Of a stretch of DNA of 13,700 nucleotides, positions 794-13,700 are shown in pieces (position 1 is the first letter of the stretch; every line of letters starts with the position of its first letter). A program made the translations under genes and the position numbers. The notes beneath the pieces are model-generated. The model was not told the origin of the DNA. It searched no databases and worked only from the letters and a program-made list of their open reading frames with translations. Source of the DNA: a virus; the UHGV virus genome UHGV-1812412, one strand, 5' to 3'.

Positions 794-824
794 CTTCTCC
801 GGTATCCTTTTGATGCGGGGCAAA

Positions 825-1227: not shown

Positions 1228-1686
1228 TTAGCCTCTCCCCACATTTGACCAATATTTGATTGCACCGATCAAATCATCATAGTGGCGCATGGCATCATTG
1301 AAGCCTTTATAGCTTGCCCATTGTGGGGAAACCTTGTTATTGCTGAATTGCCCACTAATCAGGATAGTCTCCAAAATGTCGGCGTATCGCTTGCCAATTC
1401 GCTTTCTGACGGCCTCAGAGCTCCCACCCTTTACGATTGCATTAATCAGGGCTTTTGTGTGTCTCAGGCTCTCATAGAGCATTGCAGCGTGGGCAGATTC
1501 CATAAAGGAGCGCTTAGGCAGATCACCCCACCCCTCAGAATGAATTGCTGCCAGTGTGGCGTAATTCAGGCCGCTATAGTGCTTTCCGTCATCCCAGCCA
1601 ACCGCTACACCTTCCATCTGTGAGAGCTCTTTATGCAGCTTATCCATCATGCGCTTGTCTATGGTGCAACGGACTTTCGGACTCAT
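1228..1686 (-). CDS. Hypothetical phage-associated protein, 152 aa
   Basis: Intact ORF; its ATG (1686..1684) overlaps the stop of the upstream gene in an ATGA arrangement (translational coupling); GGAGA 7 nt upstream. No family recognised. Confidence 0.55.
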   Translation of the reverse strand: MSPKVRCTIDKRMMDKLHKELSQMEGVAVGWDDGKHYSGLNYATLAAIHSEGWGDLPKRSFMESAHAAMLYESLRHTKALINAIVKGGSSEAVRKRIGKRYADILETILISGQFSNNKVSPQWASYKGFNDAMRHYDDLIGAIKYWSNVGRG

Positions 1687-2513: not shown

Positions 2514-2645
2514 TTCATGGATTTGGCTAAAGCCAAACCTGCAAAAGATGCAGGCAAAATAGAACTTATCGTTGCCCTGCTTAAAATCTGCAGAAAATAC
2601 AGGGCAGTTATTCGTTAGAATCGCTTATAGCTCTTCCCGAGAGCG

Positions 2646-2897
2646 TTATTTTGCAAAACGGTTATGGGCATTCAGGGCTTTTTTGCGGTCCTGGGCTTGT
2701 TTGCGTGCAATAAAATGTTCGAAAGTCTCGGCCCAGGTGCATTTATTATATTCACGGTACTTATGCATAGCCTGGCGGCTAACGTCATAGCAGGCGGCAA
2801 ATGTGGAGATACGCAGAAATTCCGGCAGATCCTCGTCATCGATATGGATAATATCAAAAGGCACGTCGTCACGGTCGCCGTATAAAACAATTTTCAT
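2646..2897 (-). CDS. Small protein, 83 aa, possible helix-turn-helix DNA-binding protein
   Basis: ORF track starts at a GTG at 2906; the in-frame ATG at 2897 has GAGGTG 6 nt upstream. Segment ISTFAACYDVSRQAMHKY resembles an HTH. Function not established. Confidence 0.5.
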   Translation of the reverse strand: MKIVLYGDRDDVPFDIIHIDDEDLPEFLRISTFAACYDVSRQAMHKYREYNKCTWAETFEHFIARKQAQDRKKALNAHNRFAK

Positions 2898-2931
2898 AAA
2901 AGACACCTCAAAAACTTAAGACGGGGATAAT

Positions 2932-2980
2932 AAAAAAGGGAAGAGGGAAAGACCTATCCCCGATCTCTCACCTCTTCCCT
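2932..2980 (-). terminator. Rho-independent terminator immediately downstream of the capsid-like gene
   Basis: 9-bp stem GGGAAGAGG (2938-2946) / CCTCTTCCC (2971-2979) with a 24-nt loop; A6 at 2932-2937 on + gives a U-tract after the hairpin on the - strand. T-rich on the + side too (2980-2994), so possibly bidirectional. Confidence 0.6.
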
Positions 2981-3010
2981 TTGCTTTTATTTGGCCTTCG
3001 AAGAAGGACC

Positions 3011-4054
3011 TTATTTAGCCTTGGCTTTTGCCAGAGCAGCGGCGGCGGAGTTACTAACACTCACTTTAACCACAACCTCAGGCATCATGTTCATGAAAGC
3101 ATAAGAGGATTCAATGAAGATTTCTCGTTTACCTCTGGACTCTTCCATATACATGAAAGCTTCACGTGCAGCGCCGTTTGCAAGCTTCAGGTTGCGAGCG
3201 CAAGGGCCGAAAAATTGAGTATAAACGCCCACCATATCGCCTAACGCATGTGGCTGGAATTGTGGGACCAGATAAGCAGTATTCTCTGGCAGACTATCCA
3301 TTTGCACCACACGCAGAGCTAAGCCCGGAATGCGGAAGGTCGGGAAGCCCGGCAGAATATCCTCAGGGAACATCAGACCTTTATCGGTAATATTCTGATT
3401 GCCGAACAACAGCACTTTACGGAGCAGTTCATCAGTCTGAATAGCGGCGAACACCTCAGCACGGCAGAACAGGGTGAAACCACGCAGAGCGCGAACGACA
3501 CCACGCTGTTTAACCTTGCTCAGTGCAACCAGGTCCTGCAGTTGTTTGAGAATATCTTGAGCTAGATCCATTTCAGAGGTGGACTGTTCCACGCCCAGCA
3601 GTTCGCACACATTCAGCTCTTTACCCTTGGTGAGGATAATTTTGTTCTCAAAGAGAGCAAGCTGGCGTGCTTCTTCGTGGGTCTGGCGTAAGCCTTCGCC
3701 CAGTTGAATAACACGACGAGCGGTTACAGACTCTAAATTCTCTTCGGAATCTTTGCCCGGAACACGGATACCTTGCCAGTCAGAAGGATAAATAGCACTT
3801 GATGCGGCAGTGAATGCCATATCACCCGTGCCCGTTTCACGCTCATCTGCGGTAATGGTCGCCATCTGTTCACCGTAGCGCGGATACTGACCGAAAGCGG
3901 TTTGTTTCACCTGGCGAACTTTGTCATATTCAAATTTAAAGGTATTGCACAGAGCAGTAGTGTTGAAGATATCCATTGCTGAAATAATCTGGTTATCCAG
4001 CGGGATGTCTTTAATCAAGCCACACAGATCGCGGACTTCGAATTCTTTTTTCAT
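3011..4054 (-). CDS. Putative phage major capsid protein (lambda gpE-like), 347 aa
   Basis: Long ORF; ATG at 4054 with GGAGG 6 nt upstream (ORF track begins at a TTG at 4060). N-terminal MDIFNTTALCNTFKFEYD and C-terminal IESSYAFMNMMPEVVVKVSV resemble lambda gpE (TTAQLL...KFKFD; MIQSAPLMLLADPDEFVSV) as recalled from memory, not search-verified. Followed by a strong terminator, as expected for a highly expressed capsid gene. Confidence 0.55.
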   Translation of the reverse strand: MKKEFEVRDLCGLIKDIPLDNQIISAMDIFNTTALCNTFKFEYDKVRQVKQTAFGQYPRYGEQMATITADERETGTGDMAFTAASSAIYPSDWQGIRVPGKDSEENLESVTARRVIQLGEGLRQTHEEARQLALFENKIILTKGKELNVCELLGVEQSTSEMDLAQDILKQLQDLVALSKVKQRGVVRALRGFTLFCRAEVFAAIQTDELLRKVLLFGNQNITDKGLMFPEDILPGFPTFRIPGLALRVVQMDSLPENTAYLVPQFQPHALGDMVGVYTQFFGPCARNLKLANGAAREAFMYMEESRGKREIFIESSYAFMNMMPEVVVKVSVSNSAAAALAKAKAK

Positions 4055-4065
4055 CTCCAACCTCC

Positions 4066-4401
4066 TTATTGTGCAACACGCAAATCGCCATTGCTGGCAG
4101 CGATAACAGCGGCTAAGCCTTCTTTATCCACGTAGGCCGGATTGATATAACAGCCCTTGTTGGCAACAACGATAAAAGCATCACCAACCTCAGCACGTTC
4201 TACAACCAGCAGCGGAGTTTTATCGGTGTGCGTTTCTTTAACGAAGGTCTCAACCTCGCCAGCCTCAGTCACCACAACAACAGTGCCAGCCGGAATCTCA
4301 GCTTTAACTTTGTTTTTAATTTCAACGTCGCGAATACTAAATTGCTCATCTGCGGCGTATGAAATGATGTGTCCGCGTGTGCGGATAGTCATATCTCTCA
4401 T
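4066..4401 (-). CDS. Putative head decoration / capsid accessory protein, 111 aa
   Basis: ORF ends 11 nt before the capsid start; AGGTGA 6 nt upstream of its ATG. Size and position directly upstream of the capsid gene fit a decoration or cement protein. Function is by context only. Confidence 0.45.
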   Translation of the reverse strand: MRDMTIRTRGHIISYAADEQFSIRDVEIKNKVKAEIPAGTVVVVTEAGEVETFVKETHTDKTPLLVVERAEVGDAFIVVANKGCYINPAYVDKEGLAAVIAASNGDLRVAQ

Positions 4402-5215
4402 TTGATCACCTGCGATTTAAATTAACTCCCCTCAAAGAGTTCCGGTATAACCTCTCAAACCACGACGCTCGGGCCGAAAAGTTATGCCGGAAATCTAAAG
4501 GGAAATTGATACAAGGAGAGGGAGATAGCCCCGCACCGTCCAAGCGGGGGCTATTCCATATGGGGAAAACCAACAACAGTTGGCTGATAGTTCACAGTAT
4601 GGGTTACTAGAGAGCACTATCACGAAAGACACTCCCCCGAATCAGTTCAGGCTGCGGTCACATCAGCGGGGAAATACCTTTCGGGATAGCTACCCACACA
4701 GAAAACCCGCAAAAGAAAACTGTGTGGATAACTAGCCCAATAGGAGAATTAATCGACCACTCAACGATGATCAGGGTAGTGTTATTTATAAGGCGGCACC
4801 GCTACCTGGTCGCCTTTACTTTGGAGGAAAATACGGCAAATCAAGATCTTCTCACAATGATATTGACGCCATACTGTATATTATATCAGTATTTACTCAC
4901 ATTGTCAACACCCTGATTATATAAATTCTAATAATTAGCGTAGTAACGGTATTTTCAGACCTCTATCAATCCCATCAATACGTCACCCCACCCTTTAGAT
5001 GCATACATCCGACCTACTTTGTAGGCTTGGCGTACTGCCAAGGTCGCAGCTATGCGACTCCTATCTATCACCACTTTATAAAGCTTGATAGATATCCGTT
5101 GATCAATATCAATGTTTTCCGGGGATTTACCCGGCTATAGTTCGAATCAAGGAAGGGGAGCATTGATAGCACCCAACCGAGCAAACAAATCAACTTCTCG
5201 CAAAAGGTTATAGAT

Positions 5216-5338
5216 ATGGGTATCAAGAACAGTGCCAGCGCATGGCAAAAGGCCAGGTTTCATCACCCACACATGGTTAAGGCAATTGAGGTGGTTGGAG
5301 TTTTAGCCCTGATGTTAGCTCTGTGTGTGGAGGTGTGA
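5216..5338 (+). CDS. Micro-ORF, 40 aa, hydrophobic C-terminus (MGIKNSASAWQKARFHHPHMVKAIEVVGVLALMLALCVEV)
   Basis: ATG preceded by AAAGG 8 nt upstream inside a 17-nt leader motif that is duplicated before the membrane protein gene; its stop is 1 nt before the next ATG. Confidence 0.25.
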   Translation: MGIKNSASAWQKARFHHPHMVKAIEVVGVLALMLALCVEV

Positions 5339-5339
5339 G

Positions 5340-5420
5340 ATGGGCAAAGGAGGCAAAGCATTTTTAATAGGTCTGGCAGTCTTAGATTTTGTATTAATCA
5401 TCATTGAGCGGAGTTTATGA
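5340..5420 (+). CDS. Micro-ORF, 26 aa, single hydrophobic helix (MGKGGKAFLIGLAVLDFVLIIIERSL)
   Basis: ATG at 5340 with GGAGG 6 nt upstream; its stop overlaps the ATG of the following HTH gene (ATGA at 5417-5420). Confidence 0.25.
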   Translation: MGKGGKAFLIGLAVLDFVLIIIERSL

Positions 5421-5677
5421 CGGGAACTAAAGATATTAAGAGACTGAGGGAAGAGCTGATAGCTGAAATTAAAGCGAAGGCAAAGCAAATGGAGATAGCC
5501 GCACAAATGGATGTAGCGGAACAGATGTACAAGATGGTTGAGGAGGGAACGCCACGACAGGTTATAGCAAAAACCTTCGGTGTGGGGATCGCCACCGTGC
5601 ACAGAAGGCTGAAAGCCTATGCCGACTACCACAATATCGAGAGAAAGGAGGATGGGAGATTTAAGAAGAATAAATAG
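5417..5677 (+). CDS. Small DNA-binding protein with resolvase/invertase-type helix-turn-helix, 86 aa
   Basis: Segment TPRQVIAKTFGVGIATVHRRLK matches the pattern of the Hin/Gin-type C-terminal HTH (PRQ-LA-FG-G-ST--R, recalled from memory); N-terminal half predicted coiled coil. No catalytic recombinase domain present. Confidence 0.65.
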   Translation: MTGTKDIKRLREELIAEIKAKAKQMEIAAQMDVAEQMYKMVEEGTPRQVIAKTFGVGIATVHRRLKAYADYHNIERKEDGRFKKNK

Positions 5678-5769
5678 TGTGAACAGTCCAATAGGTTAAG
5701 CTCTGGCTCATAGCCCTCGCCTCGAGGGTGTTATTAACTAAATTCAACTTCTCGCAAAGGGGTACCATT

Positions 5770-6291
5770 ATGTTATTTCAGAAAGATAAAGAATCAGAAA
5801 ACAAAAAGCTTTTTAAAGCAATAGTAAAAATGTTCTTTCAGTACACTGCAGCGTTTTTGATAGCCGGGCCTTGGTTAATGGCTATCTGTTTTTACCCTGC
5901 TACCTTGTTTATTGGCAGTAGCAAGTTCGGCGATGGCCCGTTTCATGTGGATATTGGTTTTATAGATTCTCTCCTGATCCGTCCTATAAATGCTGTTCTC
6001 AATGCTTTCTACTTCCCCACTAGTCTAGAGGGGTGGTCGGTAACCTGGGGTGTTTTAGGCTTAGCATATGTATATTGGTTGGTTGGCTTTTTGTGGGGTG
6101 CAATCTGTGCTCTCCTCGATATTGATACAGGATCAAGCCGTAGGAGTGGTGGTAATAATAGCGGAGCGGGTGTATATGCACACGTAGGTACCAGAGGGGT
6201 AAGTATCACCGCAGGTACCCGATTCGCTGGCGGCTGGCTGAGCATAGGCAAACGCGGCGTTAGTTGGAGAAAAAGCAAAAAACTGTTCTGA
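5770..6291 (+). CDS. Membrane protein, 173 aa from ATG 5770, with at least two hydrophobic helices and a Gly-rich basic tail containing a repeated G-x-R-G-V-S motif
   Basis: ORF track starts at a GTG at 5728; the ATG at 5770 has AAGGGG 7 nt upstream. Hydrophobic helices FFQYTAAFLIAGPWLMAICFYPATLFI and WGVLGLAYVYWLVGFLWGAICALL; tail has GTRGVS and GKRGVS. Terminator directly downstream. Confidence 0.6.
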   Translation: MLFQKDKESENKKLFKAIVKMFFQYTAAFLIAGPWLMAICFYPATLFIGSSKFGDGPFHVDIGFIDSLLIRPINAVLNAFYFPTSLEGWSVTWGVLGLAYVYWLVGFLWGAICALLDIDTGSSRRSGGNNSGAGVYAHVGTRGVSITAGTRFAGGWLSIGKRGVSWRKSKKLF

Positions 6292-6298
6292 CCTACCA

Positions 6299-6322
6299 GG
6301 GGGGCCATCACGGCCCCTTTTT
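6299..6322 (+). terminator. Rho-independent terminator after the membrane protein gene
   Basis: GGGGCC (6301-6306) / GGCCCC (6312-6317) stem with 5-nt loop, followed by TTTTT (6318-6322). Confidence 0.7.
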
Positions 6323-7636
6323 ATTTATCCCTCAATTAACCCCTATTTATCCCCTATTTAATGCCTATTTATTGATTTAATCCGTTTTATGCCACAACCG
6401 CCCGGTTGACAGAGTAAGAGAGAGGGTGTAACCCTTTTTCGTAATACCAATAAAATCAATAGCTTAGCTCAATTGGCCTTTTCTCTGTTTTTGTCAAATT
6501 TAACATACCCTCAAAAACTGCAAAATCTGGCTGCAAGATTATCTGCAGCTGGATTTCTTACACCTCAATTTGTGGTATCACCCTGACTAGTTTGTGCATA
6601 AAATGAACAGTTTTTAACATTTCCTCCTCACCTGGTAACCACACAAAAAGCTAAAAACGAGGCACAGATAATCTTAGAGGCCTGTTTTCTTGTTATCACT
6701 CTGGGAACGTCGTAGAAGTGATTTTGATGAAAGACGGCCTACCCTATTACACCCCCATTTTTTGTTATCACAATTGCATCCTGTGCGGTATATGACTATG
6801 TGCTGAAAGCGGTCTCAGGTGTTGGTGTCAGAAATATCCATTAGCGGTATTTGAGCTTATGGGTAACTCGTCTGAGGTGCCAGGCAGGCGCTCCCCTACC
6901 TCCCCTTTTTCTTCTAACAATTCTCAAATATCACACCACTGCCCACCACGTTGCTATTATGTTAATTCTTAAGCTTTGCTGTATGTTGTGCACATTATTT
7001 ATTCAGATGCATGTACGTAAATTCTGTGCCCACTGATCATGATTTTTAAATCAGATTTTGTAGTGCGCTTTATTAGTGTAGATAAGATCTATTATGTTAA
7101 ATGCAATTTTCCCAACCCTTCAAATCAATGACTTACATGTAAGCATGCACTAACACCCCACACAGCACATTAGACGTGTAGATGTCTATATCCCACATTT
7201 TTGATTGTTTTGTAGTCATTCCCCTGATCATTTAACCAGTATAGTTTGCTCTCTGCAGACCACAAAATCGGAATTTACATCTGATTAACATAATCTGTTA
7301 GCATGATCACCATTACCCACACAACAATAACCCCATGCAAGCCTCTTCAGGCAATTTATCGGCGTGTTGGTGTGAACAGTCTTTCATGTTCTTTATGTAT
7401 TCATGACTGCAAGGAATGTATTCATTGGCCTGTGTGGGGGAAGGATGGACTGCCTCAGGGGCCATACTTATGATGCCCGGTCAACATAGCTGTTGATAAA
7501 ATCAATGGGTGTTGATCTGCGTATTTCCCACACATGAGAGGAAATCAAAGCAAAGAGAGAGGAGAGAGGTTTGTTAGTCAAAATAGGTCAATTGACGGCT
7601 AATACAGAGTAAAAAATCAGATGCAATCACTCCCCC

Positions 7637-7819
7637 ACCTGTTGGGATTTCCCTCACCTGTATAAGAATACAGTCATACTTTCCCGTTATACGGTCATAC
7701 ACATGATGGAATAACCTGTTGGAATTTCCCACAGGTTCAACCATACATAAGCATTAACCTGTTGGAATTTCCTACTACTACCTGTCGGTATTTCCCACAG
7801 GTACCTGTTGGAATTTCCC
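7637..7819. repeat. Iteron array: five direct copies of a 17-mer ACCTGTYGGWATTTCCC
   Basis: Copies at 7637-7653, 7714-7730, 7757-7772, 7780-7796, 7803-7819; the last three are exactly 23 bp apart. Two copies are followed by the inverse ACAGGT. Partial copies of the ATTTCCCACA core at 7522-7534 and 8321-8333. Confidence 0.75.
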
Positions 7820-7911
7820 ACACTAATAGATAAAGAGAATAGATTAATAAAAAGATACCCCCCTAACCCCCCAGGGGGAATGGGGAGGGATCAGAGAGTG
7901 GGGAAGGTTTT

Positions 7912-8014
7912 CTAGATGTACGTAATTGGTACACTTAAAGGTGGATAATATGAGGCTAGATGTACGTAATTGGTACACTTAGAATATTCTAGATGTACGT
8001 AATTGGTACACTTA
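7912..8014. repeat. Three identical 26-bp direct repeats CTAGATGTACGTAATTGGTACACTTA, each with an internal dyad TGTAC-N7-GTACA
   Basis: Copies at 7912-7937, 7956-7981, 7989-8014; start-to-start spacing 44 and 33 bp (multiples of about 11, same helical face). A near DnaA box GGTGGATAA lies at 7940-7948. Confidence 0.8.
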
Positions 8015-8339
8015 AATCACATAAGTTATTGAGTTTATTAGAAAAAGTGATTCACCTATATATACTACTGATTCGCCTCCGCTCATCATTAGTATGGTGT
8101 AACTGATTCATGCTTCGCTTACGCTCACATTCATCTACTTACACCCCCTTATCTGAATTGAACATTCCCGTCCAATCCAGCTAAGAGAATTGATTGAACA
8201 TTACCTAACATCCGTTAGCTAACATTCTAATCAATTAACTACTTAATCACTTCCACACCTTCCGGTGGTGCCAAGTGTCCTGGCATGGTGGGAAAAGATT
8301 CTGCCGTTTTAGGTAGAATTGATTTCCCACAAATAGTAA

Positions 8340-8660
8340 GTGTCGGCCCTTCAATGTCACTCTCCTATGAGGGGGAGAGATGACGGGCCTCCTGTGTGGG
8401 TGAGTATCGGAGCAGTCTGTGAAGTATGAGCAGGCTGTGAGATACGCTACTGTATATCTGCGTAGAACAGCCTCCGCTGTTTACGCTCTTTGTGTGGGTC
8501 CGGCGAATGCGACAGCATGAGGCCCACATGTGGACCGCTGCCGAAAGCTTGCCAGCGCCGGAAGGAGGCGGCAAAGAGTCTCCCGCGCGGTTGTAGGTCC
8601 GCGCCGGACTTTAACTTACAGTTAAACCCTTCGGGCTTGTGCGGGTGCACGCACACATAT
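8340..8660. other. GC-rich, hairpin-dense non-coding island, candidate structured RNA or DNA processing site
   Basis: Sharp rise in GC relative to AT-rich flanks. Local stems include TCTCC/GGAGA (8361-8379), GCGCGG/CCGCGC (8585-8604), TTTAAC/GTTAAA (8609-8625) and GTGCG/CGCAC (8639-8654). The only ORFs are two overlapping Arg/Pro/Ser-rich minus-strand frames without RBS. Confidence 0.3.
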
Positions 8661-8843
8661 ATATAAAGGATACACTCATAAATCGAAAATAAGCGCGATT
8701 TTAGCGCCTACAGCGAGATAAACTATACTCCCTAGTGTAATTGCATTACCTGATGCTTAAATCGCGTTGTAGGGCCTCTCATGAGGTTTGAGTTTAACAC
8801 CCTCCAAAGTTTTAACAAAAAGTGCTCTCCCTCCATTGTGGGC

Positions 8844-9013
8844 CATTGACAATCTTATTGCATAAATGCTATAAGTTATTCTGATTTTGACACGGTAGGG
8901 GCCATTAATAATGCTTACCCCTTTGCTGTGGACTTGCTTGTGTCTGCTGTGCAGGCTATGGCACCTATAGCTCGCCTAAATGATAATGATTCCTATTGAC
9001 AATTGGTTGTCAA
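8844..9013 (+). promoter_or_regulatory. Operator-like 9-bp palindromes ATTGACAAT overlapping -35-like TTGACA hexamers; candidate tandem promoters
   Basis: ATTGACAAT at 8844-8852 and 8995-9003; the second is part of an 18-bp dyad TTGACAA-TTGG-TTGTCAA (8996-9013). Possible promoters: TTGACA 8846-8851 + 18 nt + TATAAG 8870-8875; TTGACA 8996-9001 + 17 nt + TAAGAT 9019-9024. Confidence 0.4.
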
Positions 9014-9059
9014 TATGATAAGATTATAGATAGTGGGAGAAACAGATCCGGAGGTCAAC

Positions 9060-9209
9060 GTGGAACTGAGCGACGCTATAGCGATCATCAACCTGGCTGT
9101 ACTGTGGTGCGGTGTTGCCTACATAGCCGGAGTAACTGCAATCGACAACCTTGAAGAAAAAATGATAGATAAATACAAAAAGATTGTTGACAATCTCGCA
9201 AATAGCTGA
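9060..9209 (+). CDS. Small hydrophobic protein, 49 aa, GTG start
   Basis: GGAGG at 9050-9054, 5 nt before the GTG at 9060; product MELSDAIAIINLAVLWCGVAYIAGVTAIDNLEEKMIDKYKKIVDNLANS has one predicted transmembrane helix. Not in the supplied ORF track (below the length cutoff). Confidence 0.35.
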   Translation: MELSDAIAIINLAVLWCGVAYIAGVTAIDNLEEKMIDKYKKIVDNLANS

Positions 9210-9215
9210 TAAAAT
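9182..9215 (+). promoter_or_regulatory. Sigma70-type promoter with an operator dyad over the -35
   Basis: -35 TTGACA (9187-9192), 17-nt spacer, -10 TAAAAT (9210-9215); dyad GATTGT-TG-ACAATC (9182-9195) overlaps the -35 and shares the TTGACAAT core with the upstream palindromes. Confidence 0.5.
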
Positions 9216-9263
9216 ATAAATCATAGGGTAATTCTCAGCATGTGAATTTTCCTTAAACAGACT

Positions 9264-9295
9264 AGCGGGGCTTGTCTTGAGTCCCGTTTCTTTTT
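9264..9295 (+). terminator. Promoter-proximal hairpin plus U-tract (attenuator or 3' end of a short RNA)
   Basis: CGGGGC (9266-9271) pairs with GTCCCG (9281-9286), with one G-U pair, around a 9-nt loop, followed by TTTCTTTTT (9287-9295). Sits about 50 nt after the predicted start site and 44 nt before the next ATG. Confidence 0.5.
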
Positions 9296-9338
9296 AAACC
9301 TACATCGCACAGGCGGTGAGCCAACAGGAGATTGAATC

Positions 9339-9548
9339 ATGGCTAAAACTGGACCGATCAGCCAGCTGGTAGACTGGACTACTGACGAAATCGTCGAGAA
9401 CGTGCTTAAAGGTAACTTTCGAAAAACTTCTGTTTATGCATTTATTCGAAAACACAAAGGAGAATATCCACACATTGAAGCGGCAATAGAAAAACTTAAC
9501 TTTATTAAACTTGAGCGCCAGCTGGAAAGATATAAACACCTACTTTGA
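9339..9548 (+). CDS. Small protein, 69 aa, possibly DNA-binding
   Basis: AGGAG at 9326-9330, 8 nt before the ATG; first gene after the promoter/attenuator. No family recognised. Confidence 0.6.
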   Translation: MAKTGPISQLVDWTTDEIVENVLKGNFRKTSVYAFIRKHKGEYPHIEAAIEKLNFIKLERQLERYKHLL

Positions 9549-9584
9549 TAAAAGGTAACCGTAACCCGGTAAGAGGTAAACATT

Positions 9585-10454
9585 ATGAATATTAAGTCTG
9601 TTTTTAATATAACTTTAAATGATGATCCTAGTATCCTTTTGCTGCCTATGCTCATAAACAAATCTGGACTATTAAAAAAAGGCGACGCAAGGGATATTTA
9701 TATTTATATGTGGAATATTTACTATCTCAACGCTAAAAAAGAGGCCGCCAAGGTGTTCAGTAAGAAGACTAAAGGAAGAAGCCTCAGTCAGGATATGAAA
9801 GATTCCATAAGAAAAGAATGTTTTGCAATTAATGATAAAGATTCCTGTGTGGAAATCTCTTATAAGGATATAGAGGAAAGAGTAGGAATATTACGACCAC
9901 ACGCAGTAAGGGCAATTAAAAAGCTGGAATCTGAAGGAATTATCACCTGCCTTAAAAAAGGCAATAAGCATAACCCTTATGCATCATGGCAAATTAATGT
10001 CGGAATCTTTGAAATGATGGAAAGAGTAGGGATTGAAAACCTCATTGGGTGGGATCTCTTAAAACCATATTGGAAGAAAGAACAGGAAGCAGCCGGAAGA
10101 GGGGAGGGGGATAAAGCCCCGCAAGAAGCCCCAAAACAGGCCGCACAGCAAGCTAAAAAGGCCGAGGTGGTGCAGTTCCCTTCTACGAAAGATAAGAGCG
10201 TCAGAATCGAGCGTAGCTCTCATCCTGAAAGTGTGACAACGTCACCTGTTAAGACAAACAATGAAGGGCCAGTGAAAGAGATACCCAAAATTATAGACAT
10301 TTCTTCTTTTATGGCAGATGAGGAAGATATGCAAGATGAGTGGTGGACACCTCCAGAAAATAATGATTATGGTTATGATCCTTATGGCTATGATGAAGAT
10401 GAATATAGCCCGTTTGAAGATGAATATATAAATGATTCCGCTATCCCTTATTAA
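9585..10454 (+). CDS. Winged-helix DNA-binding protein, 289 aa, with a Lys/Ala/Gln-rich linker and an acidic, aromatic C-terminal tail; candidate replication initiator or regulator
   Basis: AAGAGGT 7 nt before the ATG. Segment ISYKDIEERVGILRPHAVRAIKKLESEGIITC has the classic winged-helix pattern seen in replication initiators and MarR-like regulators; C-terminus DEEDMQDEWWTPPENNDYGYDPYGYDEDEYSPFEDEY. Function inferred. Confidence 0.75.
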   Translation: MNIKSVFNITLNDDPSILLLPMLINKSGLLKKGDARDIYIYMWNIYYLNAKKEAAKVFSKKTKGRSLSQDMKDSIRKECFAINDKDSCVEISYKDIEERVGILRPHAVRAIKKLESEGIITCLKKGNKHNPYASWQINVGIFEMMERVGIENLIGWDLLKPYWKKEQEAAGRGEGDKAPQEAPKQAAQQAKKAEVVQFPSTKDKSVRIERSSHPESVTTSPVKTNNEGPVKEIPKIIDISSFMADEEDMQDEWWTPPENNDYGYDPYGYDEDEYSPFEDEYINDSAIPY

Positions 10455-10542
10455 TACCCCCAAATAAACTAAATAAACTAAACATAGAATTACTAGAACT
10501 AGATTGATTGCCCTGATCTTTTAAACGTTCGGAGAATTAATC

Positions 10543-11028
10543 ATGTTCAAATCTGATCTTTCTGATTCCCAATTTGAAAAACTGGTAGCACTGCAGAAAT
10601 ATCTCCCCAGTGATGATCAACCAACACGACAGGCCAAACACTTATTAGTCGAGGGCTTTACCCCTGAATTCGTAGCGGAATATACAGGCGTTAAACTTGA
10701 GAAAGTCCAAAAACTATATAATGAGTCCTGGAATCCACGGTGTCGAGTTCCCCTCAGTGTCTATAACGAAATAGATAGAGATAAAAATGTCTTCGAAGAT
10801 CGCCGCCGCAAATCTCTTTTAATGTGGAATTGCGGGATGAATATTGAAGAGATAGCAAAAGAATTAAAAGTAACCTGCTTTCATATTTGGGGCTTGTTGA
10901 GTGAAATCCTGCCACGTAAGGAGCTTAATCAACGTTTGCCTAAGCCCGGTAGTCGTGCTTATCGCGAATTTATATTCATCTACCGCCGCCATAGCAATAA
11001 AGTCCGGAAAGCAATGCAGCGCAAATAG
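10543..11028 (+). CDS. Hypothetical protein, 161 aa, with two HTH-like segments and a basic C-terminus
   Basis: GGAGA 7 nt before the ATG; HTH-like segments FTPEFVAEYTGVKLEKVQKLY and MNIEEIAKELKVTCFHIWGLL. Could be a small terminase subunit-like or regulatory protein; not resolved. Confidence 0.7.
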   Translation: MFKSDLSDSQFEKLVALQKYLPSDDQPTRQAKHLLVEGFTPEFVAEYTGVKLEKVQKLYNESWNPRCRVPLSVYNEIDRDKNVFEDRRRKSLLMWNCGMNIEEIAKELKVTCFHIWGLLSEILPRKELNQRLPKPGSRAYREFIFIYRRHSNKVRKAMQRK

Positions 11029-11116
11029 CTTATAGCCTTCACATATGCCGCAAGTTATTGATTCTGCCGTCCGGTAAATATGCCGGATGGCTCATATAAA
11101 TTTTAAGGAATTCCAA

Positions 11117-11560
11117 ATGTCTCAAATCGCTAAATTACTATCCCAGGTTATCAAAGCTATCGACGCTGAAGATTCAAAAGTTCGCCAGGATCTTTTAGAT
11201 GGCAAGTTTACCAATACTCTGGCATTTACCCGTGACAAAGAGCACTTCTTAGAGCACAAACATCCCGCCTTTGTTGAATGCAAGTCCGCTAATGGTGATG
11301 TTTTCTATGTCGATTTGGTGGTTATGGCTATGCGCCTGTGGATGATTCAGGACCTTATGCGCCAACACGGTGATGATCCTCTTATCAGCATGTGGAACAG
11401 CGCCCAGGATGGCTTTGTGATTGCTGCCTTATCCAAATCCATGATTGAGGCAGAAGGCGCAAGCCTTCAAAACATGGCAGATCTCTTTGAAATAAGCGTA
11501 GGAATGATGCAGACCATGCTGCAGGCGGTGAAGCCTCTCAAGCTGGTTAACCTTGAATAA
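11117..11560 (+). CDS. Hypothetical protein, 147 aa
   Basis: ORF track begins at an ATG at 11087 with no RBS; the in-frame ATG at 11117 has AAGGAA 6 nt upstream. Followed by a terminator. Confidence 0.65.
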   Translation: MSQIAKLLSQVIKAIDAEDSKVRQDLLDGKFTNTLAFTRDKEHFLEHKHPAFVECKSANGDVFYVDLVVMAMRLWMIQDLMRQHGDDPLISMWNSAQDGFVIAALSKSMIEAEGASLQNMADLFEISVGMMQTMLQAVKPLKLVNLE

Positions 11561-11571
11561 TTGATTAATAA

Positions 11572-11606
11572 GCACCCTCAAAAAATGGGGGTGCCTTTAT
11601 TTATCT
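11572..11606 (+). terminator. Rho-independent terminator
   Basis: GCACCC (11572-11577) / GGGTGC (11589-11594) stem followed by the T-rich run CTTTATTTATCTT. Confidence 0.6.
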
Positions 11607-11638
11607 TACTTTTCACGTTTATCTAAAAGGATATGCCT

Positions 11639-12022
11639 ATGAATATTGAAGAAATGATAGTTGAATTCGATGATGGTGATTTCCTGGAAGATGGGGAGTT
11701 TAAATACTCCCGTTTTAAACAGGCGTTATTTAGCAGCGATGATAAACCCCACGTTAGTGATCTAAATGACGATGATTTATGTCGCTGGGTATGCACCCGC
11801 TTATATGAGGATGGAAAATATACAGGCCAAAACTTTCCAAATCTCTATTTCAAAGCACAAACATTTGAGGAAGGGCAAAGAGTGAAAAACCTGGTCGATA
11901 AAATGCTGTCAGCCGGATATTTGCATAAAGAATTATTAAATCCTAAAGCTGAAAGCAAGCGCCATTATATTTTTGTGTGGACTATTGGCGATAAGTGTCC
12001 ACTAAGACGCAAAGGCAAATGA
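11639..12022 (+). CDS. Acidic protein, 127 aa, in the position of a tail assembly chaperone
   Basis: ATG at 11639 has AAGGA 8 nt upstream (the ATG at 11633 is too close to it). Product is strongly acidic at the N-terminus; sits two genes upstream of the tape measure gene, as gpG-like chaperones do. Inferred from position and composition. Confidence 0.55.
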   Translation: MNIEEMIVEFDDGDFLEDGEFKYSRFKQALFSSDDKPHVSDLNDDDLCRWVCTRLYEDGKYTGQNFPNLYFKAQTFEEGQRVKNLVDKMLSAGYLHKELLNPKAESKRHYIFVWTIGDKCPLRRKGK

Positions 12023-12023
12023 T

Positions 12024-12209
12024 ATGAATACCTACGAAAAGATTTATCAAAAATTAAAAAGTGATAACAATGCTCCCGTCATCAAGGGCGGGGCTTCTTC
12101 CTCTGGTGACCTCTCAATCGAAGAGCTTGCGGAGAAATATAATATTGATAAAGAGGCCCTGAAAAGGGCTATTTCATTATCAAAATCTTTAAGACAGGGC
12201 GAGGTGTAA
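12024..12209 (+). CDS. Small protein, 61 aa, immediately upstream of the tape measure gene
   Basis: ATG 1 nt after the stop of the preceding gene (TGA-t-ATG); ends 3 nt before the tape measure ATG. Could be independent or the extension part of a frameshifted chaperone. Confidence 0.45.
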   Translation: MNTYEKIYQKLKSDNNAPVIKGGASSSGDLSIEELAEKYNIDKEALKRAISLSKSLRQGEV

Positions 12210-12212
12210 GAG

Positions 12213-13700
12213 ATGGCAATGAAGGAAGTCGCCAGACTAACAAACGTTATTTACTGGGATTCTGATAAATCCAGCTGGCGAAAAGAAGTTAAACGGCTTG
12301 AGGATTATAAAAAATCCTGGAAGAAAGCCACCGACGATATAGCTAAAGCTGATTTTAAATCTAATCAGGCTGTGCTCAGAACACAAAGAACACGCGCTAA
12401 GGTGGAAGAGCAGATTGCCAGAGCTCAGAGGAAACAACAGGAAGCACAGAAGAAACAACGTGCTCAGGCTGTCAGCCGTCTGACCGGGGGCAACAATGCC
12501 GAACTTAACTCTATGCGCAAGTTCTATCAGCAGCAAGCCAGAGAGGCCGCCAGACAACAAAAACTGTTAGATCGTAGTGTTGGAGATGTTCAGCACAGAA
12601 AAGCACGTGTAGGGGCCAACAGTGCACGAATTAGCGGCATGTTTGATGGCTCTATCGTCTCCCAGTTCCAGGGGCGCATTCAAAGAGTTAATGCTGATTA
12701 TGCTAAAGGGGCTATAAACCTGCAGACCTATAATCAGAGGATGGCTCGGCTCAGAGCTGAAATGAAGATGGCAACAGCAGAGGCCGGAAAATTTCAGAGC
12801 AGACTGGATAAACTGGCATCAGGTGCCAGCAAGGTGCATGACAACCTGGGCAAAATCAACTCCACACTAGGCAAGATAGCCATTGGCCTTACTGCCGCTG
12901 GCTGGGGTGTTCAGCGTGCTGTTAGTGGTGCTATGGGTAGCCTTGCAGATCGCAACAGTGCCTACTTCGGTTTAATGGCTCAGAACAAGGATGATAAAGC
13001 CAAGACTGATCAGCAGATGGCTTTTATCAAGAACACAGCCTACACCTATGGGATGGATGAGCGGGAGATGCAAGGGGGCTACATGCGCTTTGCTGCAGCT
13101 ACTCCCACCATGAAGGAATCTGATAAGCAGGCTCTTTTTGAGGCTATGGCTATTAAAGGTCGCTCAGTGGGTGCTACTGGCGAGCAACAGAACAGGGCGC
13201 TTGTTGCGGTCCAACAAATGGCTTCAAAGGGAAAAGTTATGGCAGAAGAGCTGCGGGGCCAACTGTCAGAAGCCTTTGCAGGCTCACAACAGGATTTTCA
13301 ACAGGCCGCTATTGATGCCGGAATCATCAAGAATGCCCAGGAATTCGATAAAGCCCTTAAAGATGGCAAAATCACCCTGGACAAACTTCTTCCTTCTCTG
13401 GTGAAAATCTGGGGTGCAGCAAAAGAAACTAAAGCTTTTGCTGAATCCATGAAACAACCGGAAGTAGCACTGCAGCGCATGAAAAACAGCTTTAACGAGC
13501 TGGCGATTCAGTTTATGGGTGTTGTGGATCCTGCGGATGGCGTTATTAGCTTATCTGAATCTCTGATCTCCATCTTCGAAGACCTCACCACTGATATGGA
13601 CGGCAGCGGGAGCGCGGCAAAACAGTTCGGTGAGGCAGTCGGGGCTGCCATGCGTGAGATCATGTATTGGGTAGGCTTCGCTAAGGGATATATTGAGGTC
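12213..13700 (+). CDS. Partial CDS (3' end outside window): N-terminal part of a phage tail tape measure protein
   Basis: ATG at 12213 with GAGGTG 7 nt upstream; frame stays open to the window edge (496 codons). Missing from the supplied ORF track because it has no stop in the window. Coiled-coil N-terminus, then NRALVAVQQMASKGKVMAEELRGQLSEAF, which matches the conserved tape-measure domain pattern. Confidence 0.8.
   Translation, partial: MAMKEVARLTNVIYWDSDKSSWRKEVKRLEDYKKSWKKATDDIAKADFKSNQAVLRTQRTRAKVEEQIARAQRKQQEAQKKQRAQAVSRLTGGNNAELNSMRKFYQQQAREAARQQKLLDRSVGDVQHRKARVGANSARISGMFDGSIVSQFQGRIQRVNADYAKGAINLQTYNQRMARLRAEMKMATAEAGKFQSRLDKLASGASKVHDNLGKINSTLGKIAIGLTAAGWGVQRAVSGAMGSLADRNSAYFGLMAQNKDDKAKTDQQMAFIKNTAYTYGMDEREMQGGYMRFAAATPTMKESDKQALFEAMAIKGRSVGATGEQQNRALVAVQQMASKGKVMAEELRGQLSEAFAGSQQDFQQAAIDAGIIKNAQEFDKALKDGKITLDKLLPSLVKIWGAAKETKAFAESMKQPEVALQRMKNSFNELAIQFMGVVDPADGVISLSESLISIFEDLTTDMDGSGSAAKQFGEAVGAAMREIMYWVGFAKGYIEV

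What the first reader, a model, noticed from the sequence alone, without database searches (positions are those of the whole stretch)
8340..8660. GC-rich hairpin-dense island, candidate structured RNA or DNA processing site
About 320 bp of markedly higher GC than its AT-rich flanks, with several independent stem-loops and no plausible coding frame. It could be a non-coding RNA, a packaging (cos or pac) site or a recombination site. No reverse transcriptase gene is nearby, so a retron is unlikely.
Basis: partly seen in the sequence, partly recalled or inferred. Interest (0 to 1): 0.6.

Follow-up and report, generated by a model that had tools for sequence, protein, structure and literature searches.

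The report
Helper-phage-like structured RNA array in satellite plasmid
The GC-rich island is a real, non-coding array of conserved hairpins, most likely folding as RNA, that sits beside the replication origin of a small E. coli plasmid parasitic on rV5-like phages, and its core is copied from the helper phage's own genome, so it is probably the handle through which the plasmid uses helper or host machinery.

Summary
Window 8340-8660 is GC-rich (0.50-0.58 against 0.34-0.44 in the flanks), hairpin-dense (fold z = -5.3) and non-coding. The window is a whole 13.7-kb circular "satellite plasmid" of E. coli. It encodes diverged copies of rV5-like (Vequintavirus) tail and capsid proteins but no detected terminase or portal. 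The island is a modular array of hairpin modules (H1, Mc, Md, Me) joined by the octamer TGTGTGGG. It lies just downstream of the origin-like repeats. Modules are swapped among more than 39 related elements, but Md is always present. H1 and Md are the only non-coding DNA shared with rV5-like phages. There they follow a small winged-helix gene, four dyad repeats and an AT-rich block. Compensatory changes support the helices: H1 4 of 16 pairs, Md P3 3 of 6, Ma 7 of 14. G·U-rich stems, UUCG and GNRA loops and folding energies point to the + strand, probably as RNA. No Rfam family, tRNA or retron matches. Function is inferred. The best guess (about 0.3) is an origin-coupled cis-acting RNA. Close rivals are an antitermination or leader RNA and a decoy RNA. 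A pac site is less likely.

The parts
7640..7825 (.). 23-nt dyad iterons (ACCTGTTGGAATTTCCCACAGGT type, at least 4 copies). Presumed binding sites of the element's O-like Rep protein. An AT-rich stretch follows at 7826-7857.
   Evidence: family D1. One search shows different iteron sequences in relatives at the same place. Rep assignment (PHROG replication initiation O-like).
7910..8016 (.). Three 30-nt repeats, each with a dyad (TGTAC-N7-GTACA). They look like operators or iterons. Three different specificities occur among relatives at this position.
   Evidence: D2.
8039..8066 (+). Promoter-like site (TAGAAA-16-TATACT) pointing into the island. The -10 hexamer is conserved in all long-type relatives, and the helper phage has TATACT hexamers at the matching place.
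   Evidence: sequences. This is a consensus match only; it is inferred.
8070..8250 (+). G-poor, C-rich stretch predicted to be unstructured (C 27.6%, G 11.6%), with rut-like composition. It is nearly invariant among long-type relatives.
8255..8335 (+). Stem domain: a small hairpin at 8269-8285 and a long hairpin at 8288-8330 that contains a G·U pair. Positions 8258-8275 are 83% complementary to the Md loop at 8548-8565.
   Evidence: (I6). There is no sequence variation, so no covariation test was possible. The long-range pairing is about what chance would give.
8340..8392 (+). Hairpin H1 (outer stem 8345-8349 with 8385-8389; inner bulged stem). It is homologous to the helper phage (about 85% identity).
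   Evidence: 16 pairs, 99% of cells paired, 4 pairs with changes on both sides, none with a change on one side only.
8393..8400 (+). Junction octamer TGTGTGGG, first copy in the island.
   Evidence: 9 copies in the window against 0.34 expected.
8401..8490 (+). Module Mc, a long irregular hairpin that ends in the boxA-like CGCTCTTT. It is optional in the family.
   Evidence: (-33 kcal/mol on the + strand against -24 on the - strand).
8491..8589 (+). Module Md, the universal core. The closing stem P1 pairs UGUGUGGG (8491-8498) with CCCGCGCG (8582-8589) and has 2-3 U·G pairs. P2 is a hairpin with a GACA loop. AUGUGGA (8528-8534) is single-stranded and conserved. P3 pairs 8537-8542 with 8567-8572 and encloses a 24-nt loop that is conserved with the phage.
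   Evidence: present in 39 of 39 relatives that cover the region; single copy in the window and in the phage.
8590..8637 (+). Module Me: three small hairpins, including a cUUCGg tetraloop at 8627-8635. It is optional (seen in the window and L004 only).
8638..8664 (+). Junction variant TGTGCGGG, a hairpin UGUGCG/CGCACA, and an alternating purine-pyrimidine tract. The tract is present in all satellites with different sequences.
   Evidence: Read directly from the sequences.
8689..8711 (-). Intrinsic terminator on the - strand, facing the island. It would stop leftward transcripts coming from the regulatory region at 8986-9013. Its stem differs between relatives but stays paired.
   Evidence: sequences.

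Best explanation
SHOWN. The island is a non-coding array of independently folding hairpin modules, most likely acting on the + strand. It sits in an insulated 2.4-kb non-coding domain of a 13.7-kb satellite plasmid of rV5-like phages, immediately downstream of the origin-like iterons and AT-rich DNA. Its core, H1 and Md, is homologous to the segment that follows the winged-helix gene, four dyad repeats and AT-rich block in the helper phage. INFERRED. It is transcribed rightward from a promoter in the AT-rich block (8039-8066) and acts in cis as an origin-coupled RNA. In this model the transcript made beside the melted origin folds into H1 and Md. It then supplies the primer, an R-loop or the loading signal for DNA synthesis. 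Because H1 and Md copy the helper's own origin-proximal RNA, the T7-like replisome of the helper (primase-helicase plus family-A polymerase) would accept the plasmid as a template during infection. In the absence of the phage, the plasmid's own Rep and iterons would run maintenance replication. The optional modules (Mc, Me, and Ma and Mb in relatives) would be exchangeable spacers, swapped by recombination at the TGTGTGGG junctions.
For: Real structure: fold z = -5.3. H1 has 4 of 16 pairs with changes on both sides and none broken, except in one recombinant. Md P3 has 3 of 6 pairs compensated between satellite and phage alleles. Ma has 7 of 14.

Strand and molecule: the P1 closing stem has 2-3 U·G pairs. 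It appears in the minimum-energy fold of 15 of 18 distinct Md sequences, across three alleles whose interiors differ. Duplex energy is -9.5 to -17.4 kcal/mol on the + strand against -2.4 to -11.9 on the - strand. Mc folds 10 kcal/mol better on the + strand. The loops are cUUCGg and GNRA types. In the phage the element points the same way as its neighbouring genes.

Link to the origin: in the phage and in both satellite architectures the array always lies directly after repeated dyad sites plus an AT-rich block, in the same orientation, although the downstream genes are unrelated. The phage gene upstream is a 116-aa winged-helix protein matching replication-initiator families (PHROG 12838; Pfam HTH_36, marginally, 25.1 bits against a cutoff of 25). 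A 51%-identical relative of the phage gene downstream sits between DNA ligase and an exonuclease in another phage.

Insulation: terminators at 6298-6320 (+) and 8711-8689 (-) bracket the domain. The downstream operon has its own sigma-70 promoters at 8996-9024 and 9187-9215 and, read by eye, about 8846, so it does not need the island as a leader.

Link to the helper: H1 and Md are the only non-coding homology between the element and a complete rV5-like genome, and they are single-copy in both. They are more conserved (76-87% nucleotide identity) than the best shared protein gene (62% nucleotide, 55% amino acid). H1 chimeras show ongoing recombination with the helper. All 39 relatives that cover the region keep Md. 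rV5 encodes a gp4-like primase-helicase and a PolA-type polymerase (PMC3606486).
Against: No transcript, primer or replication start has been mapped, so every functional step is inferred. The promoter-like site has a weak -35, and short-type relatives show no sigma-70-like promoter upstream of the array. The phage dyad repeats and winged-helix protein could equally be operators and an activator of a late promoter. The phage element lies upstream of the tRNA, lysis, terminase and structural block, which fits a leader or antiterminator just as well. The G-poor stretch at 8070-8250 looks like a Rho loading site, which is a gene-expression feature. Satellite allele B shares only the short motifs and the fold with the phage, and no allele-B phage is in the database. 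The dyad repeats in the satellites differ from the phage's, so no shared DNA-binding initiator is implied. P1 never varies in a fully compensatory way; the only changes are C-to-U wobble changes and one joint (TG)n/(CG)n expansion.
Confidence: 0.3

Rival explanations
1. A cis-acting leader RNA controls transcription elongation. It could be a put-like or nut-like processive antiterminator, or a Rho-dependent attenuator. In the phage it would sit behind an activator-controlled late promoter and make RNA polymerase read through the roughly 50-kb late operon. The satellite would have borrowed it to express its own + strand operon (Rep through tape measure).
For: The structure is conserved, on the + strand, and co-directional with the downstream genes. 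In the phage this is the only sizeable intergenic region upstream of the tRNA, spanin, TerL and structural block. A small DNA-binding protein gene plus four dyad sites upstream looks like an activator and its sites. The G-poor, C-rich 180-nt stretch before the hairpins resembles a rut site. Mc ends in the boxA-like CGCUCUUUG, followed by a GNRA-capped hairpin. An RNA that contacts the host polymerase would explain loops conserved between phage and satellite without any phage factor.
Against: The satellite operon has its own near-consensus promoters downstream of the island, with a palindromic operator (by eye). Short-type relatives have no recognisable promoter upstream of the array. The boxA-like motif is absent from the phage and from satellites without Mc. 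No terminator was identified that the element would override. No Rfam antiterminator family matched.
Confidence: 0.25
2. The array is a stand-alone or processed non-coding RNA acting in trans. The multicopy plasmid would express same-sense copies of the helper's H1 and Md as a decoy. The decoy would titrate the helper or host factor that binds them, causing interference or sensing infection. Alternatively, the hairpin modules are released at the UGUGUGGG junctions as small RNAs.
For: The element mimics the helper sequence and the loops are conserved. Accessory modules are gained and lost rapidly, as at an arms-race locus: 12 arrangements among 39 elements. The domain is insulated. There is a precedent for RNA mimicry in a phage compared with rV5 in PMC3475682 (the pseudo-ToxI RNA of PhiTE; seen in the abstract, not read in full). 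In short-type relatives the array is bounded on the left by hairpins that act as terminators only on the - strand, so discrete transcripts are conceivable.
Against: No + strand terminator ends the array. No processing enzyme or partner gene is evident. The modules are all different, not repeats of one unit, unlike ToxI or CRISPR arrays. The - strand terminators point to the strand that the wobble pairs and loops do not favour.
Confidence: 0.15
3. The hairpins act as single-stranded DNA signals. They would form on the + strand, which is the lagging-strand template of a fork leaving the origin rightward. There they would serve as primosome-assembly or primase-recognition sites, like G4-type ssi signals near plasmid origins.
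For: The position and orientation relative to the iterons and AT-rich block fit. The DNA-parameter fold is also significant (z = -4.6). Watson-Crick covariation in H1, P3 and Ma fits DNA hairpins equally well. The phage Md contains GCGAAGC, the sequence of a very stable DNA mini-hairpin known from phage origins (the significance is from my own knowledge).
Against: The P1 stem, with two or three T·G mismatches in 7-9 pairs, would be weak as DNA and does not form in the DNA fold. UUCG and GNRA loops are RNA-type stabilisers. No similarity to known ssi sequences was tested or seen.
Confidence: 0.1
4. The island is the packaging (pac) recognition site. The satellite has no detected terminase, so it would carry the helper's pac site, read as double-stranded DNA through the repeated TGTGG-type motifs.
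For: No terminase or portal was detected in the element (annotations). rV5 DNA is circularly permuted, which implies headful packaging (PMC3606486). H1 and Md are the only non-coding DNA shared with the helper. TGTG(T/G)GG-like motifs recur in direct orientation.
Against: A double-stranded protein site does not explain compensated hairpins or strand-specific wobble pairs. Allele B keeps the fold but not the sequence. In the phage the element lies 3.4 kb from TerL, next to genes that look replication-related. The gene downstream has a weak winged-helix-like model and no TerS signal (low confidence, inconclusive). Several proteins of the satellite are of unknown function, so it may have its own small terminase.
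Confidence: 0.1
5. The array is passive: recombination scars or small selfish hairpin elements (MITE- or REP-like) that accumulate at TGTGTGGG microhomologies and have no function of their own.
For: TGTGTGGG is about 26-fold over-represented, occurs in both orientations across the element's non-coding DNA, and flanks a roughly 100-nt segment as an inverted pair at 7431-7534. Each extra module comes with one extra junction copy.
Against: Md is retained in 39 of 39 elements and in all 119-120 rV5-like phages found, at 89-100% identity. The helices are maintained by compensatory change. The modules are not found elsewhere in the window or in the phage.
Confidence: 0.05

Closest known systems
Origin-coupled primer or R-loop RNAs: ColE1 RNA II, phage T4 oriE and oriF transcripts, the mitochondrial LSP/CSB primer
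   Same: A promoter next to an easily melted region, followed by a long, multi-hairpin, G-rich transcript whose fold matters. The element is single-copy and sits at the replicon's origin. T7-type replisomes (mitochondria, T7) use such transcripts as primers. This comparison rests on my own knowledge of those systems.
   Different: There is no sequence or Rfam similarity: RNAI and every other family were negative. No antisense partner was identified inside the island. The build is modular with 8-nt junctions. The element also has an iteron-binding Rep, which ColE1 lacks. No RNA-DNA junction is known.
HK022 put RNA and lambda nut sites (processive antitermination signals in phage leaders)
   Same: A cis-acting structured RNA just downstream of a phage promoter and upstream of a very long operon. 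Function depends on stems being kept by compensatory change. There is a boxA-like CGCUCUUU followed by a GNRA-capped hairpin in the Mc/Md junction.
   Different: It is far larger and multi-domain (100-nt Md plus H1, against two roughly 35-nt put stems). boxA is absent from the phage copy. No N-like protein was identified. It lies beside iterons. There is no sequence similarity.
P4 immunity leader (CI RNA with seqA/seqB/seqC) and the P1 c4 RNA
   Same: A satellite or plasmid-prophage leader region upstream of the replication operon that works through RNA structure. The window has an upstream 18-mer (8258-8275) complementary to the Md loop (8548-8565), reminiscent of seqA-seqB pairing.
   Different: The Rfam C4 family did not match. 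The complementarity is about what chance gives (83% over 18 nt) and has no covariation. P4 shares its cos site, not this kind of RNA, with its helper.
Satellite plasmids cf-PISP and PISP of Vibrio (PMC13230959)
   Same: A phage satellite kept as a plasmid, 11-16 kb, with its own capsid gene and no integrase.
   Different: This element is in E. coli and has tail genes (tape measure, Dit-like tube initiator, tail completion) related to a virulent 136-kb myovirus. It has no detected terminase, portal or partition genes. No structured RNA was described for the Vibrio elements.
Lambda-type origin (four dyad iterons bound by O, then an AT-rich region)
   Same: The phage locus has a winged-helix gene, four dyad repeats and an AT-rich block. 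The satellite has an O-like Rep, dyad iterons and an AT-rich stretch.
   Different: The structured GC-rich RNA-like array that follows has no counterpart in lambda ori. The phage protein is only 116 aa, a DNA-binding domain alone.

Membership tests
Any Rfam 15 RNA family | Covariance-model score at or above the family's gathering threshold | tested here: not met
   0 hits in the whole window; with E up to 10 on 7600-9100 there were only chance-level microRNA and snoRNA hits, none near threshold.
tRNA / tmRNA | Cloverleaf or tmRNA fold detectable by ARAGORN | tested here: not met
   0 genes.
Retron msr-msd | Adjacent reverse transcriptase gene | tested here: not met
   No RT domain in the window ORFs scanned. 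None is annotated in nine complete relatives.
Retron msr-msd | Flanking a1/a2 inverted repeats with a conserved branching G | not tested
   Not pursued once no RT was found.
ColE1-type RNA II / RNA I replication control | RNAI-like antisense RNA (Rfam RF00106), and RNA II ending at an RNase H-processed origin | tested here: not met
   No RNAI hit. RNase H processing is not testable with these tools.
Origin-coupled primer or R-loop RNA (functional class) | Promoter directed into or next to the unwinding region of an origin | tested here: inconclusive
   Promoter-like site at 8039-8066 scores 9 of 12. Long-type relatives and the phage keep a TATACT hexamer. None is seen in short-type relatives.
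Origin-coupled primer or R-loop RNA (functional class) | RNA-DNA junction or persistent hybrid at the site | not testable with these tools
   Needs primer mapping or DRIP.
Processive antitermination RNA (put) / nut site | boxA (CGCUCUUUA) plus boxB hairpin, or paired put stem-loops, just downstream of a promoter, in all members | tested here: not met
   The boxA-like CGCTCTTT is present only in module Mc. It is absent from the phage and from satellites without Mc.
Processive antitermination RNA (put) / nut site | Suppression of downstream terminators in cis | not testable with these tools
   Needs reporter assays.
P1 c4 / P4 CI antisense RNA | Match to Rfam C4, and loops complementary to target sites in the same leader | tested here: not met
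   No C4 hit. The one complementarity (8258-8275 with 8548-8565, 83%) is near chance and does not vary.
pac / cos packaging site | Sequence shared with the helper's packaging site | tested here: inconclusive
   H1 and Md are shared with the helper, but the helper's pac site is unknown. rV5 DNA is circularly permuted.
pac / cos packaging site | Location in or next to the small-terminase gene | tested here: inconclusive
   No TerS is annotated in the phage. The downstream 192-aa protein shows no TerS signal and gave a low-confidence model (pLDDT 55) with weak winged-helix-like matches. TerL lies 3.4 kb away.
CRISPR array / RNA anti-CRISPR mini-array | Direct repeats of at least about 23 nt separated by unique spacers | tested here: not met
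   The only repeated unit within the island is the 8-nt TGTGTGGG.
Type III toxin-antitoxin RNA (ToxI-like) | Tandem identical repeats of about 36 nt next to an endoribonuclease toxin gene | tested here: not met
   The modules are all different. No toxin gene is adjacent.
Phage satellite plasmid (context of the island) | Small circular replicon with its own replication genes, some virion genes related to a helper, and lacking essential phage functions | tested here: met
   There are 13.2-14.4-kb circular plasmids or contigs. The element has an O-like Rep. Capsid, Dit-like, tail-completion and tape-measure genes show 34-55% amino-acid identity to JohannBauhin. No terminase, portal or integrase was detected.
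Phage satellite plasmid (context of the island) | Helper-dependent induction and transfer | not testable with these tools
   Needs infection experiments.

The most novel reading that the evidence does not exclude
The array is a new kind of helper-satellite interface. It would be a cassette-like RNA, with hairpin modules exchanged at 8-nt UGUGUGGG junctions, whose universal core (Md, a roughly 100-nt multi-helix domain closed by a (UG)n/(CG)n wobble stem) is an undescribed RNA class. Virulent rV5-like phages would use this RNA at their origin or late-switch region. A previously undescribed family of E. coli satellite plasmids would mimic it, either to capture the helper's replication or expression machinery or to titrate it.
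Probability: 0.3. Interest if true: 0.85.

Novelty: new variant of a known kind. Interest (0 to 1): 0.68.

Why it matters
Phage satellites are known to exploit helpers through proteins and through shared cos or pac DNA. A structured RNA element shared between a virulent helper and its satellite would be a different kind of molecular mimicry. It would also give a handle on two open points: where and how rV5-like (Vequintavirus) phages, which are widely used in therapy cocktails, start replication or switch to late expression; and how a plasmid-borne satellite senses and exploits a lytic phage. The element is short, single-copy and comes in natural allelic and modular variants (A, B and phage alleles; 12 module arrangements). 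Swap and compensatory-mutation experiments are therefore straightforward. The host element itself also seems not to be described in the literature I could search. It is a 13.7-kb E. coli satellite plasmid carrying tail-length and capsid genes related to rV5.

Tried and rejected
**Known RNA classes**
- Rfam at gathering and permissive thresholds gave nothing.
- ARAGORN found no tRNA or tmRNA.
- Retron: rejected, because no RT was found.
- CRISPR-like or ToxI-like array: rejected, because there are no long repeats and the modules all differ.

**Coding**
- The overlapping 58-69-aa ORFs cross module boundaries that differ between relatives.
- A tiny ORF starting at the conserved AUGUGGA (MW..., 11-22 aa, with an SD-like GAGG or GGAG upstream) was considered. 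Its stop and length are not conserved, even among phages, so it is not adopted.

**Pairings and extra copies**
- The long-range pairing 8258-8275 with 8548-8565, which closes the minimum-energy fold, is about chance level, is absent from the phage and from short-type relatives, and never varies. It is not relied on.
- An apparent Md-like stretch in the capsid-operon leader (around 4650-4700, - strand) was not confirmed: the Md profile finds only one copy in the window and one in the phage.
- Modules Ma, Mb, Mc and Me were not found elsewhere in the phage or the window.

**Database searches that found little**
- Allele B gave no match in the phage database.
- 7900-8340 against phages gave nothing.
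- Megablast of 7600-9300 against phages gave nothing.
- A capsid search of IMG/VR gave nothing.
- An 18-mer scan of IMG/VR gave one real phage and one chance hit.
- A gapped Md pattern run on IMG/VR, GTDB genomes and JGI metagenomes gave 106 loci, of which only 5 are real: 2 satellites and 3 rV5-like phages.

**Test of the pac idea through the phage's downstream gene**
- There was no PDB sequence match.
- The AlphaFold model was poor (pLDDT 55) and gave only weak winged-helix-like fold matches. The result is inconclusive.
- A 51%-identical relative lies among DNA-metabolism genes with no non-coding region upstream.

**Literature**
- No paper in the searchable library describes this satellite or an rV5 non-coding RNA.
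Full report
**1. The observation**

The island is real. GC is 0.505-0.58 in 200-nt windows over 8301-8700. It is 0.34-0.42 on the left and 0.41-0.44 on the right. The stretch 8240-8670 folds far better than dinucleotide shuffles: -182.5 kcal/mol on the + strand (z = -5.3) and -158.9 on the - strand (z = -5.2). With DNA parameters z = -4.6. Rfam finds nothing at gathering or permissive thresholds, and ARAGORN finds nothing. The three overlapping 58-69-aa ORFs are mechanical. They cross boundaries that differ between relatives.

**2. What the window is**

The 13,700 bases correspond to a complete circular replicon. Nine E. coli "plasmids" of 13.2-13.7 kb match it end to end at 91-96% identity, and one 39.6-kb record is a trimer of the same unit. 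All are typed non-mobilizable. A search with the Rep protein found 50 clusters, all from E. coli and nearly all on 13.4-14.4-kb contigs.

The element encodes these proteins:
- a major capsid protein,
- a Dit-like tail protein,
- a tail-completion protein,
- a tape-measure protein,
- an O-like replication initiator,
- several small HTH proteins.

No terminase, portal, integrase or reverse transcriptase was detected.

Against the complete genome of the rV5-like phage JohannBauhin:
- the Dit-like protein is about 55% identical to the phage "tail tube initiator";
- the tail-completion protein is about 48% identical to a phage protein;
- the tape measure is about 34% identical to the phage tape measure.

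So this is a plasmid-borne satellite of Vequintavirus phages. Satellite plasmids were recently described in Vibrio (PMC13230959). I found no paper on this E. coli family.

**3. Anatomy of the island**

About 2.4 kb (6320-8690) is non-coding in every member. It is bracketed by a + strand terminator at 6298-6320 and a - strand terminator at 8711-8689. Inside it, from left to right:
- 23-nt dyad iterons at 7640-7825, whose sequence differs between relatives, followed by an AT-rich stretch;
- three 30-nt dyad repeats at 7910-8016, which come in three specificities across the family;
- a promoter-like site at 8039-8066;
- a G-poor stretch at 8070-8250, with C 27.6% and G 11.6%;
- the hairpin region at 8255-8664.

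Comparing 39 relatives shows that the hairpin region is an array of independent modules joined by the octamer TGTGTGGG. In the window the order is:
- a stem domain (8255-8335),
- H1 (8340-8392),
- TGTGTGGG,
- Mc (8401-8490),
- Md (8491-8589, beginning with the second TGTGTGGG),
- Me (8590-8637),
- TGTGCGGG,
- a terminal hairpin and an alternating purine-pyrimidine tract.

Relatives carry other modules (Ma, Mb) or lack Mc and Me. There are 12 arrangements in two architectures, "long" and "short". Md is present in all 39 elements that cover the region and is always last, except where Me follows it. It occurs as two alleles, A and B. TGTGTGGG occurs 9 times in the window against 0.34 expected, in both orientations, mostly in non-coding DNA.

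**4. Homology to the helper**

A sensitive search of the island against the phage collection hit 120 records. All but one weak hit (a Rhodococcus phage) are rV5-like, including 18 records labelled "Campylobacter phage". The match covers two pieces, H1 (about 85%) and the 3' half of Md (about 87%), in the same order and strand. They lie in a 660-bp intergenic region that is 89-100% conserved in 119 phages.

The phage region reads, in order:
- a 116-aa winged-helix protein (PHROG "replication initiation protein"; Pfam HTH_36, a marginal hit);
- four dyad repeats (ACTGTCCGTGATACGGACAC);
- about 130 bp of nearly invariant AT-rich DNA;
- H1;
- one phage-specific hairpin module;
- TGTGTGGG;
- an Md allele ("P");
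- a 192-aa ORFan, small genes, the tRNA cluster, the spanins, TerL and the structural genes.

Whole-genome comparison shows that H1 and Md are the only non-coding homology, and each is single-copy in both genomes. They are better conserved (76-87% nucleotide identity) than the best shared gene (62% nucleotide, 55% amino acid). Three satellites carry an H1 whose 5' half is satellite-type and whose 3' half is phage-type, so recombination with the helper is ongoing. Pattern scans of IMG/VR, GTDB genomes and JGI metagenomes added only two satellites and three rV5-like phages. The element is therefore narrowly distributed.

**5. Evidence for structure, strand and molecule**

- H1: seven sequence variants, 16 pairs, 99% of cells paired. 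Four pairs changed on both sides and none on one side only. The single unpaired cell is in the chimera. Zero of 500 shuffles reach the observed covariation score.
- Md P3: three of six pairs are compensated between alleles A and P, with G·U intermediates. Allele B replaces P3 with an unrelated perfect 8-bp stem at the same place.
- Ma: 7 of 14 pairs are compensated and none is broken.
- Md P1: Md is closed by 5'-(U)GUGUGGG(AG) pairing with (CU)CCCGCGC(G)-3', including two or three U·G pairs. This stem appears in the minimum-energy fold of 15 of 18 distinct Md sequences across all three alleles.
  - Its duplex energy is -9.5 to -17.4 kcal/mol on the + strand against -2.4 to -11.9 on the complement.
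  - Its few changes are C-to-U opposite G, plus one joint (TG)n/(CG)n expansion.
- Mc folds 10 kcal/mol better on the + strand.
- Loops include cUUCGg (Me, Ma) and GNRA (Md P2), which are RNA-type stabilisers only when read on the + strand.
- In the phage the element points the same way as all neighbouring genes.

I conclude, with roughly 0.8 confidence, that the functional form is the + strand. RNA is more likely than single-stranded DNA, because P1 would be weak as DNA and is not formed in the DNA fold.

One caution applies. In short-type relatives the first hairpin and the G/C block to its left look like intrinsic terminators on the - strand, and no sigma-70-like promoter is seen upstream of the array. 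Transcription there is unexplained.

**6. What it does (inferred)**

The constant feature across the phage and both satellite architectures is what lies upstream: dyad repeats plus AT-rich DNA, in the same orientation. The downstream genes are unrelated. Other points that bear on function:
- The satellite operon has its own near-consensus promoters after the island.
- The domain is insulated by terminators.
- The phage gene upstream resembles the DNA-binding domain of a replication initiator.
- A relative of the phage gene downstream sits among ligase and exonuclease genes in another phage.
- rV5 has a T7-like primase-helicase and a PolA-type polymerase (PMC3606486). From my own knowledge, replisomes of this type start from transcripts in T7 and in mitochondria.

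I therefore rank an origin-coupled cis-acting RNA first, at about 0.3. It would act as a primer, an R-loop or a loading signal, and the satellite would copy it so that the helper's replisome accepts it.

A leader or antitermination RNA is nearly as likely, at 0.25. The phage locus is the only large intergenic region ahead of the late block. The winged-helix protein and its dyad sites could be an activator system. The G-poor stretch looks like a Rho loading site. Mc carries a boxA-like motif.

The remaining rivals, and why they rank lower:
- trans-acting decoy or processed RNAs (0.15): no + strand terminator ends the array and no processing enzyme or partner gene is evident;
- single-stranded-DNA priming signals (0.1): the wobble-rich P1 stem would be weak as DNA;
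- a pac site (0.1): a double-stranded protein site does not explain the compensated hairpins and wobble pairs;
- passive hairpin elements (0.05): universal retention of Md argues against them.

**7. Comparison with what is known, and novelty**

The element works most like origin-coupled primer RNAs or phage leader antiterminators. It is not a member of any family I could test, and the membership table gives the details. The RNA itself has no described family. The modular build with 8-nt junctions, and the sharing of a structured RNA core between a virulent helper and a plasmid satellite, are new as far as I could find. I classify it as a new variant of a known kind (a cis-acting structured RNA at a replicon control region). 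I give about 0.3 probability that it is a new kind of helper-satellite interface.

**8. Limits**

- No expression data were available.
- Covariation rests on few independent lineages (three Md alleles, seven H1 variants).
- P1 lacks fully compensatory changes.
- Promoter and terminator calls are consensus matches at about background frequency.
- The helper relationship is inferred from homology.

Noticed in passing
window 1-13700 (whole window): The window is a complete circular 13.7-kb element, about one tenth of the helper genome (135-140 kb). It encodes capsid, Dit-like, tail-completion and tape-measure proteins related to rV5-like phages, plus an O-like Rep. No terminase, portal or integrase was detected. 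It appears to be an undescribed E. coli satellite-plasmid family: at least 50 Rep clusters, found in 7 of 5426 complete E. coli genomes.
   Followed up: partly
window 7640-7825 and 7910-8016: There are two separate sets of dyad repeats. The 23-nt iterons change sequence between relatives. The 30-nt repeats come in three specificities: TGTACGTAATTGGTACA, TATCAAnnTGATATA and TGTATCAATTAATACA. The proteins that bind them were not assigned.
   Followed up: partly
window 2415, 4693, 5266, 7157, 7316, 7431, 7527, 8393, 8491 (and variant 8638): The octamer TGTGTGGG occurs 9 times against 0.34 expected, in both orientations and mostly in non-coding DNA. In phage JohannBauhin it occurs 11 times on one strand against about 2 expected. 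An inverted pair (7431-7438 and 7527-7534) flanks a roughly 100-nt segment. The meaning is unknown.
   Followed up: partly
window 6320-7650: This is 1.3 kb of non-coding DNA conserved at 88-96% across the family, with no convincing ORF and no Rfam hit. It may hold further RNA or DNA signals.
   Followed up: no
window 4402-4905, - strand: There is a perfect consensus sigma-70 promoter (TTGACA-17-TATAAT, about 4905-4877). A roughly 470-nt structured leader follows, ahead of the capsid operon. The leader includes an 11-bp hairpin formed by CCACACAG and CUGUGUGG, and a perfect DnaA-box sequence (TTATCCACA) near 4740.
   Followed up: partly
window 8689-8711 (- strand) with 8986-9013: A - strand intrinsic terminator has a stem that differs between relatives but stays paired. 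Together with a - strand promoter-like site at 9013-8986, it would give a leftward RNA of about 290 nt. That RNA would be antisense to the region just upstream of the Rep operon and could be a copy-control counter-transcript.
   Followed up: no
window 8996-9024: The palindrome TTGACAATTGGTTGTCAA overlaps divergent promoter-like sites and is conserved in all relatives. It is probably the main operator of the + strand operon.
   Followed up: no
window 8641-8664 and the same place in relatives: Every satellite has a 16-25-nt tract of strictly alternating purines and pyrimidines directly after Md. The sequences differ and often contain short palindromes such as GTGCAC, CGTATACG and TGCATGCA. The property is conserved rather than the sequence.
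   Followed up: no
L026, L027, L028 (H1 region): The H1 hairpins are chimeric: the 5' half is satellite-type and the 3' half is identical to the phage, which leaves one mismatched pair. This is direct evidence of recombination between satellite and helper.
   Followed up: yes
L004 (NZ_CP043822.1, 39,610 bp): This "plasmid" is a head-to-tail trimer of the 13.5-kb unit, with one damaged copy. It is either a real multimer or an assembly artefact.
   Followed up: no
L158 41000-43521 (JohannBauhin 91,000-93,521): The helper phage has a second, 2.5-kb non-coding region where two transcription units converge. It carries repeated GGCAACTAT/ATAGTTGCC motifs, two TGTGTGGG copies and an Ma-like hairpin pair at its end. 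Several GenBank records of related phages appear to start near it, judging from match offsets (not checked directly). It is a candidate pac or origin region.
   Followed up: partly
Phage collection hits: Eighteen GenBank records named "Campylobacter phage" (MG0656xx) carry this Vequintavirus locus at 97-99% identity. They look like E. coli rV5-like phages and are probably mislabelled or contaminants.
   Followed up: no
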